Assembly: GCA_964546555.1 (NCBI GenBank)
Contig: CAZJJX010000001.1
Coordinates: forward strand, 1-55,446
Origin: an uncultured Candidatus Saccharibacteria bacterium
GTDB lineage: Bacteria > Patescibacteriota > Minisyncoccia > Phycocordibacterales > UBA5272
Direction of reading: 5' to 3'
DNA length: 55,446 nt
Position numbers and translations under genes: made by a program. The notes under the pieces were generated by a model that was not told the origin of the DNA, did not search any database, and was given only the letters and a program-made list of their open reading frames with translations. Positions 37,489 through 38,961 of the stretch are shown here, piece after piece; within the stretch, counting starts at the first letter, position 1, and every line of letters starts with the position of its first letter.

Positions 37489-38961
37489 CTATGCTGCCTT
37501 TCTTTCCTGACTAGCATCTACTTGTGCATTGGCACTTGTGATGTAGGGGAGCGCAGGAAGAGGTCTCCCATCTTCCGTTGCTTTCCAAGCCCGATAGAGC
37601 CATTCAATGAACTTAGTTAACGTTCTCCATGCTGCCATACGATTGATGTGCGATTTGTTGTACTTGGTAACACCTTTAATAACTCGAGTCACCCCATGCT
37701 CATCGGTCACCTTCCAACCACTCTGGATTCGTTCACACCGTCCTTCAAGCAATTGCACTCGTTCGATAACCTTACCATCATCATCTTTCACCCACACTTC
37801 AGGAATAGGACACCGCGCTTGGAAACGTCTCTTCGCTTCGGTTGCAACCATTCCCCATGGAGAATTTTTCCTGTAGATCATGAATTGGTCAGCAATGAGA
37901 TACAACGCCTGTCGTGCATCACTCCAGTTGGACAACTGCCCTTTTCGGCGACGCGCGAACATACTGTTGCCAACTTCTGGACGTTCTCCTTTTTTGAACT
38001 TTGTCCCATCAAGTTTGAGCGTATGTACCCCCAGGTAAGCTTTTAGGTTACTAGAGGAAGGGAAGCGTTGGATGTTACCGATAGCTGCGATAAGTGGTGC
38101 AGCTGTGAATTCACCGACACCATAAATTGGCTCAAACACTTTCCATACGGGAAGCGAATGAAGCAATTTCTTAAGTTCTGCCCCAATCTGCGCTTCTTCT
38201 TTCATGTACAAGTTGAGCATTGAGTCATTCGCGACACTGTGCTCAATAAAAAGCTTCACACCACCTTCTGGATACGCTCCTTGCACACAGTACACCGCTT
38301 TTTTCATTCTCTGCCTCACACGATGTGCACAAGCCATGCGTGCATCCATCGCTTCTTGGCGACGATTTACTACTTCACTCAGCAAAATGAGATCACGCTC
38401 GCGAGATGCGACACGATTAAATGAAGAAGGGGACACTGCGAAAAGTTTCTCAAGAGCATAATGATCAAAGGTAATCTCAGAGCGACGACCTTCATCATCA
38501 ATCTGCTTTAACTTCGAGCGATCAAACTTGTACTCATCACACAGTCGCTTAAAGAGTGCTGTTCCTATCCAATACACACCACCAGATCCAAGGTCTTCAA
38601 GGCGGTTCGAAAGTGAGAATGCAAAGAATGACGCGGAGCCACCATTGACCATAAGAATAGTGTCACCATACTTAAGGCCAATGTTGGCGAAACTAATCTT
38701 GGTTTCTTTTCCACCCTCCTTAAAAGGAGGGAGTACAAGGTCACGACTCAACATGAAACACATCTCATGATCTTCGGTGGGCAGTGCCACTTCTTTGGTT
38801 TTACCTCCATCGATGATAAGTGCCATCGTGGGGCGTTGTTCAATAACGACACCTTCACGCATCACTTCTTTATCGCGATACGAGATAGCGATGATGCGCC
38901 CCGTATGTGGAGTAATCGTCGCAATAGGTTGCGACACCTGAGAATCATTTTGCTGTTCCAC
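37489..38961 (-). CDS. Divergent IS110/IS1111-family (DEDD-type) transposase/recombinase-like protein
   Basis: GTG start 8 nt after AAGGAG. The C-terminal signature IYGVGEFTAAPLIAAIGNIQRFPSSSNLKAYLGV...ARRRKG...ARQALY matches the IS116/IS110/IS902 transposase domain pattern. N-terminal ALIIDGG, ILMVNGG and ITFDHYA sit where the RuvC-like motifs are expected. Confidence 0.7.
   Translation of the reverse strand: MEQQNDSQVSQPIATITPHTGRIIAISYRDKEVMREGVVIEQRPTMALIIDGGKTKEVALPTEDHEMCFMLSRDLVLPPFKEGGKETKISFANIGLKYGDTILMVNGGSASFFAFSLSNRLEDLGSGGVYWIGTALFKRLCDEYKFDRSKLKQIDDEGRRSEITFDHYALEKLFAVSPSSFNRVASRERDLILLSEVVNRRQEAMDARMACAHRVRQRMKKAVYCVQGAYPEGGVKLFIEHSVANDSMLNLYMKEEAQIGAELKKLLHSLPVWKVFEPIYGVGEFTAAPLIAAIGNIQRFPSSSNLKAYLGVHTLKLDGTKFKKGERPEVGNSMFARRRKGQLSNWSDARQALYLIADQFMIYRKNSPWGMVATEAKRRFQARCPIPEVWVKDDDGKVIERVQLLEGRCERIQSGWKVTDEHGVTRVIKGVTKYNKSHINRMAAWRTLTKFIEWLYRAWKATEDGRPLPALPYITSANAQVDASQERKAA

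What the first reader, a model, noticed from the sequence alone, without database searches (positions are those of the whole stretch)
37489..38961. Divergent IS110/IS1111-type recombinase gene embedded in ~1.9 kb of ORF-free, hairpin-dense DNA: a candidate RNA-guided recombination module of unusual architecture
Seen in the sequence: a 490-aa ORF with a GTG start 8 nt after AAGGAG and its own intrinsic terminator. Its C-terminal half carries the IS110-family signature (IYGVGEFTAAPLIAAIGNIQRFPSSSNLKAYLGV ... ARRRKG ... ARQALY). The N-terminal half has ALIIDGG, ILMVNGG and ITFDHYA where the RuvC-like DEDD motifs are expected. However, the second acidic position reads Asn, and the usual Ser-Gly nucleophile motif is not obviously in register (LDGTK or GNSM). 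The flanks 36437-37488 and 38962-39786 contain no credible ORF but do hold promoters, terminators and more than 12 strong stem-loops. Established knowledge: IS110-family recombinases select donor and target DNA through a structured non-coding RNA from their non-coding end (the bridge RNA / seekRNA work published in 2024). Inference: the flanking modules are candidate guide RNAs. Their layout (duplicated 235-bp module, hairpin arrays with covarying stems, a leader of about 600 nt) does not match the single ~180-nt bridge RNA I know of. This may therefore be an undescribed variant or a domesticated system.
Basis: partly seen in the sequence, partly recalled or inferred. Interest (0 to 1): 0.8.

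Follow-up and report, generated by a model that had tools for sequence, protein, structure and literature searches.

The report
Stem-loop TIGR-Tas guide-RNA locus
The gene is not a jumping-gene recombinase but a TIGR-Tas RNA-guided DNA-binding protein with a dead nuclease domain, flanked by two arrays of about 17 small guide RNAs, a kind of system first described in 2025-2026, so this is a new member rather than a new kind.

Summary
In detail: a 490-aa ORF (37489-38961, minus strand) lies between about 1.9 kb of ORF-poor, hairpin-dense DNA containing a ~235-bp duplicated module. The flanks do encode guide RNAs for an IS110-related protein, but this is not a recombinase or bridge-RNA system. 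It is a stem-loop TIGR-Tas locus of a Patescibacteria (CPR) chromosome. The protein passes NCBIfam's TIGR-Tas model (114 vs 100 bits) and fails IS110 (28.5 vs 140). Its best structural match is TasR (9MTY). It has no acidic residue at the first two RuvC catalytic positions (S27, V105, matching R8 and V126 of the published inactive CsTasR) and no conserved serine nucleophile. A covariance model built only from relatives finds 16 units (stem-CGA-N9-TG-loop-CGA-N9-TG-stem) at E<0.01, all on the gene's strand in the two flanks. 68 of 80 species-level relatives carry such arrays, usually on both sides. The most likely function is RNA-guided DNA binding and transcriptional repression without cleavage. 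Side findings: five guide pairs are 93% conserved with a 73%-identical relative; scaffolds are conserved while spacers are replaced; there is a gene-conversion tract between the two arrays; each array has its own promoter-like element. No natural target was found.

The parts
39569..39596 (-). P1: promoter-like element TTGACA-N16-TAGTGT (TG upstream) ahead of the upstream array
   Evidence: This motif occurs only twice in the 55-kb window (null 0.15). It is conserved at the same position in L007. Function is inferred.
39429..39486 (-). tigRNA unit Ua1 (TGA AGTTGCTTG TG ... CGA GAAGAGCGG TA); a copy of U1
   Evidence: CM R1 32.9 bits, E 2.4e-6; scanner.
39359..39422 (-). tigRNA unit Ua2 (spacers AAGCGTAAG / CCATATTGA); a copy of U2 with one spacer substitution and a weakened stem
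   Evidence: CM 19.7 bits, E 0.007; alignment.
39290..39351 (-). tigRNA unit Ua3 (TGA AGGTGTTAA TG ... CGA ACAAAGTAT TA)
   Evidence: CM 19.6 bits, E 0.008; fold z -4.3.
39214..39272 (-). tigRNA unit Ua4 with degenerate box C (CGC, CGG)
   Evidence: CM 19.8 bits, E 0.007; fold z -5.2.
39149..39207 (-). tigRNA unit Ua5 (CGG GTTCAACGA TG ... CGA TAGGGAATT TG)
   Evidence: CM 23.3 bits, E 8e-4; fold z -5.2.
39078..39146 (-). Accessory hairpins H1 (39146-39124) and H2 (39123-39078). The 3' arm of H2 overlaps the 5' arm of unit Ua7
   Evidence: -39 kcal/mol, z -8.8. H2 is conserved in L001, L002, L006, L007 and L008 on the tas strand.
39020..39087 (-). tigRNA unit Ua7 (CGA TTCGTGCGA TG ... CGA TTCACTTGT TG), the last unit before tas, with an imperfect stem
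   Evidence: CM 20.7 bits, E 0.004. A unit sits at the same position in L001, L002 and L006.
38968..38973 (-). Shine-Dalgarno AAGGAG, 6 nt before the GTG start
   Evidence: Sequence.
37489..38961 (-). tas gene: 490-aa TasR-type protein with an N-terminal RuvC-like domain lacking catalytic residues, a coiled coil, and a Nop-like C-terminal domain with clade-specific insertions
   Evidence: NCBIfam NF052498 114 bits > 100. Foldseek top hit 9mty. Profile vs PDB 2.9e-19. Model pLDDT 85. S27 and V105 mapping.
37419..37481 (-). U0: unit directly after the stop codon, positionally conserved in relatives but with degenerate boxes here (CGA..TT / AGT..TG)
   Evidence: CM 24.4 bits, E 4e-4. Intact orthologous units in L001, L002 and L006. 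Fold z -4.6.
37406..37428 (-). T1: intrinsic terminator of the array-tas transcript
   Evidence: 10-bp stem with 9 GC pairs plus a T-run.
37372..37400 (-). P2: promoter-like element TTGACC-N17-TAGTGT for the downstream array
   Evidence: An equivalent element is in L007 at 4562.
37234..37291 (-). tigRNA unit U1 (AGTTGCTTG / GAAGAGCGG); spacers 16/18 conserved in L007
   Evidence: CM 32.9 bits.
37164..37227 (-). tigRNA unit U2 (AAGCGCAAG / CCATATTGA); stem has a 2x2 internal loop
   Evidence: CM 20.7 bits, E 0.004; fold z -3.1.
37096..37156 (-). tigRNA unit U3 (TCTTAAGGA / CATGATGAG); perfect boxes; 17/18 conserved in L007
   Evidence: Strict TIGRFinder-type hit; CM 32.4 bits.
37022..37077 (-). 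tigRNA unit U4 (ATGTGGATT / ATAGGTGAA); perfect boxes; 18/18 conserved in L007
   Evidence: CM 44.3 bits, E 2.5e-9.
36956..37015 (-). tigRNA unit U5 (AGCGCGAGA / ACTCCGACT); perfect boxes
   Evidence: fold z -5.1.
36892..36949 (-). tigRNA unit U6 (ACATGTCTA / TAGGACGGC); perfect boxes
36819..36884 (-). tigRNA unit U7 (ATAAATTGT / GACCTAAGG)
   Evidence: CM 32.6 bits.
36752..36812 (-). tigRNA unit U8 (CTTGGAGTT / TTGCATAGG); marginal for the model, but its L007 ortholog has perfect boxes and 17/18 spacer identity
   Evidence: CM partial hit, E 0.18; L007 5008-5070; fold z -1.5.
36688..36749 (-). tigRNA unit U9 (TTGTAGTTA / TAGGAGGGT); 16/18 conserved in L007
   Evidence: CM 27.4 bits; fold z -5.9.
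36626..36685 (-). tigRNA unit U10 (CAGTTACAG / CCAACTTGA), the last unit
   Evidence: CM 25.9 bits.
36600..36627 (-). T2: intrinsic terminator closing the downstream array
   Evidence: 12-bp stem plus a T-run. The same element is in L007.

Best explanation
Window 36600-39596 (minus strand) is a chromosomal stem-loop TIGR-Tas system of a Patescibacteria (CPR) bacterium. Two transcription units are inferred. In the first, P1 drives six tigRNA units, two accessory hairpins, the tas gene and a decayed post-stop unit, ending at terminator T1. In the second, P2 drives ten tigRNA units and ends at terminator T2. Each unit is a 10-15-bp stem closing a loop that reads box C (CGA), 9-nt spacer A, box D (UG), a 7-13-nt connector, box C, 9-nt spacer B, box D. 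By analogy with characterised relatives, the precursors are cut near the CUU motifs at the stem bases, probably by a host RNase. A Tas dimer held by its coiled coil binds one tigRNA. Spacer A pairs with one DNA strand and spacer B with the other strand of a contiguous 18-bp site (5'-A + rc(B)-3'). Because the RuvC-like domain lacks its catalytic acids, the complex binds without cutting and blocks transcription. Shown here: the locus anatomy, family membership, loss of catalytic residues, and conservation of the gene-array association. Inferred from the literature: processing, dimer formation, DNA binding and repression. Five guide pairs are conserved with a diverged relative, which suggests stable, conserved targets (regulation, or a persistent mobile element) rather than a fast arms race.
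For: Protein: NCBIfam TIGR_Tas_endo 114 bits vs cutoff 100, against IS110 28.5 vs 140. Family profile vs PDB: TaTasR 9mty 2.9e-19, IS621 9e-4. AlphaFold model pLDDT 85, pTM 0.78. Foldseek top hits 9mty_A/B over the full length, TMt 0.65-0.66. Catalytic sites: the published inactive CsTasR (L079, 547 aa, R8 and V126) maps to window S27 and V105, and neither column holds D or E in 53 sequences. RNA: a re-implementation of the published TIGRFinder rule finds 4 perfect units with 10-13-bp stems, all in the flank. Covariance model R1, built from relatives only, gives 16 hits at E<0.01, all on the minus strand in the two flanks, with the next hit at E 0.09. Units fold with z of -3 to -6. 11 of 13 short linkers carry CTT at the stem base. 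Generality: 80 species-level CPR loci carry 702 same-strand vs 70 opposite-strand units; 68 of 80 loci have at least 3 units, mostly on both sides. 518 CM hits, and 299 of the 300 listed are on the tas strand. L060 is the contig named in Faure 2025 as an inactivated-RuvC TasR. Literature: stem-loop arrays; CPR TasR dead RuvC, no cleavage, reversible repression, CUU motif. Guide conservation: 84/90 spacer bases vs 49% identity at tas third codon positions.
Against: There is no transcript, processing, binding or repression data for this locus. Inactivity of RuvC is inferred from alignment to CsTasR and not from a solved or inspected active site. E66, D100 and D166 are invariant acidic residues whose roles are unknown. 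No target site for any guide was found in the 55-kb window. External searches returned chance-level or uncorroborated hits. Promoter assignments rest on a conserved consensus-like motif only, and the general promoter scan shows no enrichment. Several units (U0, Ua4, Ua7, U8, U10) have degenerate boxes or weak stems and may be non-functional.
Confidence: 0.9

Rival explanations
1. One reading: an IS110/IS1111-type RNA-guided recombinase, possibly domesticated, whose flanking RNAs act as bridge or seek RNAs that pair donor and target DNA for recombination.
For: There is a Transposase_20 hit. IS621 and ISCro4 recombinases are the next-best structural matches after TasR, E about 3e-8. Homologous loci sit in different genomic contexts. 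A tyrosine recombinase gene lies next to the array.
Against: There is no DEDD_Tnp_IS110 hit. The IS110 equivalog scores 28.5 bits vs a 140 cutoff. The first two catalytic positions are S27 and V105, never acidic in the family. The serine-nucleophile-equivalent column reads S/T/K/E/Q or is deleted in 17 of 51 members. The flanks are fully accounted for by about 17 dual-spacer box C/D units rather than one two-loop bridge RNA. No second copy and no element ends are seen. The adjacent tyrosine recombinase is not conserved next to tas in relatives.
Confidence: 0.03
2. An active TIGR-TasR nuclease defence system that cuts invading DNA at 18-bp sites, like archaeal TaTasR.
For: It has the same domain order as TaTasR. 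D166 aligns with a retained catalytic Asp. Other invariant acidic residues exist at E66 and D100. The U3 predicted target occurs 18/18 at gene junctions of about 6 unrelated phage contigs.
Against: Two of the four canonical acidic positions are non-acidic across the whole family, exactly as in CsTasR, which showed no cleavage experimentally. Guides conserved across species argue against rapid anti-phage turnover. No other guide matches those phage contigs above the null.
Confidence: 0.07
3. A box C/D-like RNP that guides RNA modification or RNA binding, rather than DNA binding.
For: The Nop-like domain and box C/D-like motifs resemble archaeal snoRNPs. Weak Foldseek hits to Nop5 complexes exist at E about 0.08.
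Against: No fibrillarin or L7Ae partner was seen among the ORFs scanned near the locus (not all ORFs were scanned). Characterised Tas proteins act on DNA, and TaTasR had no RNA activity. The spacers are 9 nt and arranged in tandem.
Confidence: 0.02
4. A decaying, non-functional relic locus.
For: Several units have degenerate boxes or weakened stems: U0, Ua2, Ua4, Ua7, U8 and U10.
Against: The ORF is intact and 73% identical to that of the closest fetched relative. 27 columns are invariant across 51 homologs. At least 8 units have good boxes and stems. Five guide pairs are under apparent purifying selection. Promoter-like elements and terminators are conserved with L007.
Confidence: 0.04

Closest known systems
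CsTasR, the stem-loop TIGR-Tas of Candidatus Staskawiczbacteria (Xu et al. 2026, bioRxiv 10.64898/2026.09.09.750476)
   Same: Both come from CPR hosts. Both have an N-terminal RuvC-like domain lacking the first two catalytic acids (R8 and V126 there, S27 and V105 here). Both have a coiled coil and a Nop-like CTD with insertions. Both have stem-loop tigRNA arrays on both sides of tas, CGA/UG boxes and CUU at the stem bases. The proteins are homologous (L079, 34% identity over residues 95-463).
   Different: The window protein is 490 aa rather than 547. It lacks most of the ~80-aa beta3-beta4 RuvC insertion. It has its own insertions at about residues 143-165, 316-334 and 385-435. Its spacers are 9 nt and its connectors are short (7-13 nt), without the 5-bp inter-spacer stem reported for CsTasR. 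Its close subclade carries extra H1/H2 hairpins.
Inactivated-RuvC TasR of Candidatus Buchananbacteria RIFCSPHIGHO2_02_FULL_56_16 (Faure et al. 2025, PMC12045711)
   Same: It is a homolog retrieved here as L060 (29% identity over residues 6-459), with 16 same-strand units. It belongs to the same class, TasR with a dead RuvC.
   Different: It is a distant subclade with different insertions, and its array lies mainly downstream.
TaTasR (PDB 9MTY), the dual-repeat TIGR-Tas nuclease
   Same: It is the best sequence and structure match in the PDB. It shares the RuvC, coiled-coil and Nop order and the dual-spacer guide logic.
   Different: TaTasR is catalytically active, uses 36-nt dual-repeat tigRNAs with CCA/UG boxes, and carries a processing loop. 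The window system has stem-loop units of about 55-65 nt and no catalytic tetrad.
IS621 / IS110 bridge-RNA recombinases (PDB 8WT6-9)
   Same: They share the RuvC-like domain, coiled coil and RNA-binding domain fold (Foldseek E about 3e-8) and a Transposase_20 helix-hairpin-helix segment.
   Different: The window protein has no DEDD tetrad, no serine nucleophile and no single bridge RNA. It is not a mobile element and fails the IS110 equivalog model.
PlTasA / TasA stem-loop systems and archaeal box C/D sRNPs
   Same: They share the stem-loop guide with box C/D anchors and two spacers, and a Nop-type dimeric scaffold.
   Different: TasA has no N-terminal RuvC domain. Box C/D sRNPs methylate RNA together with fibrillarin and L7Ae.

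Membership tests
TIGR-Tas system | Tas protein with a Nop-type RNA-binding domain | tested here: met
   NCBIfam NF052498 114 bits vs cutoff 100, residues 196-460. Profile vs 9mty 2.9e-19. Foldseek top hit 9mty.
TIGR-Tas system | [quoted passage not shown] | tested here: met
   16 CM hits at E<0.01, all on the tas strand in the flanks. 4 units pass the strict published rule CGA-N9-TG x2.
TIGR-Tas system (stem-loop class) | Variable palindromic stems in place of edge repeats, supported by covariation | tested here: met
   Stems of 10-15 bp differ between units. In relatives' units, 94.9% of cells are paired vs about 45% in slid controls, and 8 of 9 stem pairs show compensatory changes. These units were partly selected for stems, so this figure is partly circular.
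TIGR-Tas system | Box C first base pairs with box D last base, covarying at edge and loop positions | tested here: met
   C:G in most units. U:A in U1, Ua1 and Ua3 (TGA...TA). U:A throughout the L003 array.
TIGR-Tas system (stem-loop class) | CUU motif at the stem base (processing boundary) | tested here: met
   11 of 13 short linkers contain CTT at or overlapping the stem base. No chance control was run.
TIGR-Tas system | Gene-array association conserved among homologs | tested here: met
   68 of 80 species-level loci have at least 3 same-strand units; 702 vs 70 by strand. 299 of 300 listed CM hits are on the tas strand.
TIGR-Tas system | Array transcribed and processed into tigRNAs that bind a Tas dimer and direct tandem-spacer DNA recognition | not testable with these tools
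   This needs RNA-seq and biochemistry. Long helices at 186-225 and 235-269 are compatible with the coiled coil.
TasR subclass, catalytically inactive branch | N-terminal RuvC-like fold with canonical acidic residues replaced | tested here: met
   Full-length structural alignment to TasR and IS621. CsTasR R8 maps to S27 and V126 to V105, with no D or E in either column. No DEDD_Tnp_IS110 hit.
IS110-family RNA-guided recombinase | DEDD catalytic tetrad in the RuvC-like domain | tested here: not met
   Only D166 is retained.
IS110-family RNA-guided recombinase | Conserved serine nucleophile after the helix-hairpin-helix (S241 of IS621) | tested here: not met
   The equivalent segment (LDGTK, residues 317-321) is variable (S/T/K/E/Q) and deleted in 17 of 51 homologs. 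The only Ser conserved at 80% or more is S367, 55 residues downstream.
IS110-family RNA-guided recombinase | Passes the curated family model | tested here: not met
   NF033542 scores 28.5 bits vs 140. NF051857 scores 14.6 vs 180.
IS110-family RNA-guided recombinase | One structured bridge RNA with target- and donor-binding loops in the non-coding end | tested here: not met
   The flanks are occupied by about 17 dual-spacer units. There is no Rfam family hit in the window.
IS110-family RNA-guided recombinase | Mobile element: multiple copies, defined ends, empty sites | tested here: inconclusive
   There is a single copy in 55 kb. Relatives sit in differing housekeeping contexts, which could reflect either rearrangement or mobility. 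No ends were identified.
Box C/D sRNP | Partner fibrillarin methyltransferase and L7Ae; RNA targets | not tested
   Only neighbouring and large ORFs were scanned, and none is a fibrillarin or L7Ae.

The most novel reading that the evidence does not exclude
The locus records two opposite modes of guide evolution that bear on open questions about TIGR systems. (a) Five guide pairs are held nearly constant (84/90 bases) between two species whose tas genes are only 49% identical at third codon positions. This would mean the dead-nuclease TasR serves conserved targets, most simply endogenous gene regulation or control of a long-resident element in CPR bacteria. (b) Other guides are replaced wholesale inside conserved scaffolds, and a 183-nt gene-conversion tract between the two arrays ends exactly at box C of unit 3. 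This suggests that recombination between homologous stems and linkers, rather than a Cas1/2-like adaptation machine, moves and replaces guide cassettes.
Probability: 0.35. Interest if true: 0.6.

Novelty: new member of a known kind. Interest (0 to 1): 0.38.

Why it matters
As a locus it is an ordinary member of a recently described family, and a current annotation pipeline would name it. Its value lies in context. It sits on a 55-kb chromosomal contig among housekeeping genes. It has a diverged relative (L007) with an orthologous array. That allows statements the TIGR literature lists as open: whether arrays have their own promoters, whether guides are conserved, and how arrays change without adaptation genes. 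If whole genomes of the two organisms were searched for the five conserved 18-bp targets, the natural function of dead-nuclease TIGR-Tas in CPR bacteria could become directly testable.

Tried and rejected
1. Tandem Repeats Finder sees no array, only a 7-nt repeat. Rfam gives no hit and there are no tRNAs. The arrays are invisible to repeat-based tools.

2. The relaxed box/stem scanner alone has a high background of 15.6 units per 55 kb, so isolated relaxed hits elsewhere in the window were dismissed, including 41281..41206 and 43694..43637.

3. Self-targets in the window. Contiguous 18-mers in both geometries at 4 mismatches or fewer gave 22 hits vs a null of 20.5. Any orientation with a 0-12-nt gap at 2 mismatches or fewer gave 4 hits vs a null of 2.75. 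Nothing rose above chance.

4. The near-match of Ua4 at 36387-36407, in the 5' end of the adjacent xerC-like gene, has 1 mismatch but the wrong geometry and a 3-nt gap. My estimate of chance is about 0.07. It was not pursued.

5. The U4 target in metagenomes gave 27 hits in a few clusters. These were an ND3-like coding motif, ORF-poor eukaryote-like repeat DNA and others, none related to the window.

6. Viral contig searches gave 0 hits for U4, 1 for U8, 1 for U9, 7 for U1 and 21 for U3. The U3 hits lie at stop-SD-start junctions. No other guide from this or related arrays matches those contigs above the null, so I treat this as a lead only.

7. The general sigma-70 scan shows no promoter enrichment: 8 sites vs 6.8 expected.

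9. The apparent lack of arrays in the 49-52% identity subclade turned out to be a box variant, TGA/TA.
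Full report
**1. Observation**

The ORF at 37489..38961 on the minus strand (490 aa, GTG start) is present. AAGGAG lies 6 nt upstream of the start. A GC-rich intrinsic terminator follows at 37428-37406. The flanks 36437-37488 and 38962-39786 contain only short ORFs of 85 aa or less.

A direct repeat brackets the gene. It has a near-identical core at 39522-39340 and 37327-37145, with 5 substitutions. This core is preceded by about 55 nt of weaker similarity, so each copy totals about 236-238 nt. Tandem Repeats Finder, Rfam and ARAGORN report nothing relevant.

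**2. The protein**

- Pfam reports only the helix-hairpin-helix part of Transposase_20 (residues 276-315, E 4e-7). There is no DEDD_Tnp_IS110 hit.
- NCBIfam places the protein above the curated cutoff of NF052498, 'TIGR-Tas system RNA-guided endonuclease' (114 vs 100 bits, residues 196-460). It falls far below the IS110 equivalogs (28.5 vs 140 and 14.6 vs 180).
- A profile of 51 homologs hits TaTasR (PDB 9MTY) at 2.9e-19. It hits IS621 at only 9e-4.
- An AlphaFold model built from that alignment is confident (pLDDT 85, pTM 0.78). Its best PDB matches are the two 9MTY chains over the full length (TMt 0.65-0.66). IS621 and ISCro4 come next, then TasH.

- ALIIDGG is not conserved.
- The conserved first strand is RIIAISY (residues 22-28).
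- MGGSG is a glycine motif.
- D166 is invariant.

L079 (Candidatus Staskawiczbacteria) encodes a 547-aa protein starting MSRAIGIRHRR. It has R at position 8 and V at position 126. These are the length and the two residues that Xu et al. report for CsTasR, which did not cleave DNA in vitro. In a 54-sequence alignment, R8 maps to window S27 and V126 maps to V105. Neither column holds an acidic residue in any family member.

The segment where IS621 has its serine nucleophile aligns to LDGTK. That segment is variable and is deleted in 17 of 51 homologs.

The protein is therefore a TasR-type Tas protein with a predicted inactive RuvC-like domain. It is not a recombinase.

**3. The RNA genes**

Read on the minus strand, the hairpins share one plan. 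A stem of 10-15 bp closes a loop that reads CGA, 9 nt, TG, a 7-13-nt connector, CGA, 9 nt, TG. This is the stem-loop tigRNA architecture of Faure et al.. It fits the detection rule published for TIGRFinder.

- My strict re-implementation finds four perfect units with 10-13-bp stems, all in the downstream flank.
- A relaxed version adds more units but has a high background.
- I therefore built a covariance model from 43 units taken only from relatives and scored every position of the window on both strands.
- The result was 16 hits at E<0.01, all on the minus strand and all inside 36628-37481 or 39027-39483. The next hits (E of 0.09 or higher) are generic palindromes.
- One more unit (U8) is marginal here, but its L007 ortholog has perfect boxes.
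- Units fold as predicted, mostly with z of -3 to -6.
- 11 of 13 short linkers carry CTT at the stem base, the processing motif reported by Xu et al..
- Apparent box 'mismatches' in U1, Ua1 and Ua3 (TGA...TA) preserve the box C : box D pair as U:A.

**4. Transcription units (inferred)**

The motif TTGACN-N16/17-TAGTGT, with a TG just upstream, occurs exactly twice in the 55-kb window (null 0.15). One copy sits ahead of each array, at 39596-39569 and 37400-37372. The same holds for both arrays of L007.

Together with the two terminators, this suggests the following layout.

- The upstream array, the accessory hairpins and tas are co-transcribed.
- The downstream array has its own promoter, placed immediately after the tas terminator.

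**5. Generality**

Homologs fetched with their flanks show the same association.

- A scan of one genome per species returned 80 loci, all from Patescibacteria/CPR MAGs.
- These loci carry 702 same-strand units against 70 on the opposite strand.
- 68 of the 80 loci have at least 3 same-strand units, mostly on both sides of tas.
- The covariance model gives 518 hits there, and 299 of the 300 listed are on the tas strand.
- L060 is the Buchananbacteria contig that Faure et al. cite for an inactivated-RuvC TasR.
- The 49-52% identity subclade seemed to lack arrays. It actually uses a TGA/TA box variant.

The 'unusual architecture' is therefore the normal architecture of this clade.

**6. Mechanism**

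By homology with CsTasR, PateTasR and TasA, the precursors are cut near the CUU motifs, probably by a host RNase. A Tas dimer binds one tigRNA. Spacer A pairs with one DNA strand and spacer B with the other.

The reported 3' overhangs of TaTasR cleavage fix the site as 5'-A + rc(B)-3' (my derivation). With two catalytic acids missing, the expected outcome is binding and transcriptional repression rather than cutting. None of these steps has been shown for this locus.

**7. Targets**

- No site in the window matches any guide above chance.
- The U4 target gives 27 metagenome hits that fall into unrelated clusters.
- Viral contigs give 0, 1, 1 and 7 hits for U4, U8, U9 and U1, roughly as chance predicts.
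- U3 gives 21 viral hits. Its predicted target, TCT TAA GGACTCATC ATG, always lies on a stop-SD-start gene junction. It does so in about six contexts that are unrelated at the DNA level.
- A string of that kind is enriched at gene junctions anyway, and no other guide matches those contigs above the null. I keep this as a lead only.

**8. Array evolution (side findings)**

- **Conserved guides.** Against L007 (Tas 73% identical, tas DNA 72%, third codon positions 49%), five orthologous units keep 84 of 90 spacer bases. Three others keep their stems but have random-like spacers. Most of the few substitutions sit at spacer positions 8-9.
- **Rarity of sharing.** Among 87 loci this is the only cross-species guide sharing beyond one same-organism pair. 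The null is 1-2 shared pairs.
- **Scaffold vs spacer.** In L006, four tandem modules of about 347 nt have scaffolds 88-96% identical. Their spacers are only 24-41% identical, except for one unit pair that is identical at 18/18.
- **Gene conversion in the window.** The near-identical core ends exactly at box C of unit 3. That unit's stem arms are still homologous between the two arrays, but its interior is unrelated. L007's two arrays begin with the same scaffold order but different spacers. L007's downstream unit 1 carries the window's U1 spacers. The window's repeat is therefore best read as a recent gene conversion from the downstream array head onto the upstream one.
- **Recurrence.** Duplicated guide pairs within a locus occur in 11 of 87 loci.

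I found none of these points in the TIGR papers available to me. Those papers list spacer origin, natural targets and promoter usage as open questions.

**9. Verdict**

The feature is real and is a stem-loop TIGR-Tas locus with a dead-RuvC TasR. It is a new member of a known kind. The recombinase reading and the claim of novelty were not.

Noticed in passing
window 36688-37291 (units U1, U3, U4, U8, U9) vs L007 4670-5140: Five orthologous guide pairs are 84/90 identical between the window and a relative whose tas gene is only 49% identical at third codon positions. U2, U5 and U10 keep their stems but have unrelated spacers. Substitutions cluster at spacer positions 8-9.
   Followed up: yes
window 39522-39340 and 37327-37145 (core), 39577/37380 (outer limit): The duplicated module looks like a gene-conversion tract between two old paralogous array heads. 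It covers the leader, units 1-2 and the 5' arm of unit 3, and it stops at box C of unit 3. L007's two array heads share scaffold order but not spacers.
   Followed up: yes
L006 3533-4920: The upstream array consists of four tandem ~347-nt modules, each with four units and two hairpins. Scaffold identity is 88-96% and spacer identity is 24-41%, with one unit pair identical at 18/18. Spacers are replaced independently of their scaffold.
   Followed up: yes
window 39146-39078; also L001, L002, L006, L007, L008: Two very stable non-guide hairpins (H1, and H2 with ~21-bp arms; -39 kcal/mol, z -8.8) precede the last upstream unit. The 3' arm of H2 overlaps that unit's 5' arm, so the two folds may be mutually exclusive. 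H2 is conserved only in the closest subclade.
   Followed up: partly
window 39596-39569 and 37400-37372; L007 2291 and 4562: A promoter-like element TTGACN-N16/17-TAGTGT with an upstream TG occurs only at the head of each array (2 sites in 55 kb, null 0.15). It is conserved in L007.
   Followed up: yes
L114-L134 (IMG/VR contigs); guide U3 at window 37096-37156: The predicted U3 target YCTTAAGGACTCATCATG occurs 18/18 in 21 viral contigs, always at a stop-SD-start gene junction, in about six unrelated contexts. Several contigs are Microviridae-sized. No other guide corroborates this.
   Followed up: partly
window 37419-37481; L001 7482-7535, L002 7451-7504, L006 6411-6464: A unit directly after the tas stop codon is positionally conserved, with stem taggtgga/tccacc and connector ttcgaaagaa. 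In the window and in L007 its boxes and second spacer have decayed.
   Followed up: partly
L003 5086-5940 (also L009, L012): The 49-52% identity subclade uses TGA...TA boxes at both edge and loop positions, so the C:G pair has covaried to U:A. This combination is outside the seed motif list published for TIGRFinder, so such arrays might be under-detected.
   Followed up: partly
window 36387-36407: The spacers of degenerate unit Ua4 nearly match the 5' end of the adjacent xerC-like gene (rc(B) + 3 nt + A, 1 mismatch). The geometry and the gap are wrong for TIGR targeting, and my estimate of chance is about 0.07.
   Followed up: partly
window 36443-36465: A perfect 7-nt tandem repeat (AGGTGTT x3.3; AACACCT on the minus strand) lies immediately upstream of the start codon of the tyrosine recombinase gene 35474-36436. 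No obvious Shine-Dalgarno sequence is present.
   Followed up: no
window 1934-3451: An RNase Y homolog (RNase_Y_N + HD) is encoded in the same window. It is one candidate for the host RNase that the literature suspects of processing stem-loop tigRNAs.
   Followed up: no
window 6988-9264, 11727-12872, 31463-33463, 45907-48783, 52208-53365: Several large ORFs (381-958 aa) have no Pfam hit at E<=1e-5. The remaining ORFs scanned are housekeeping genes (NusA, UvrD-type helicase, ComM-like ATPase, HlyD-like, S15), so the window is chromosomal.
   Followed up: no
L001 vs L008: All 16 units are identical between a JGI metagenome contig and MAG UBA6033, so these two loci come from essentially the same organism and should not be counted as independent.
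   Followed up: yes
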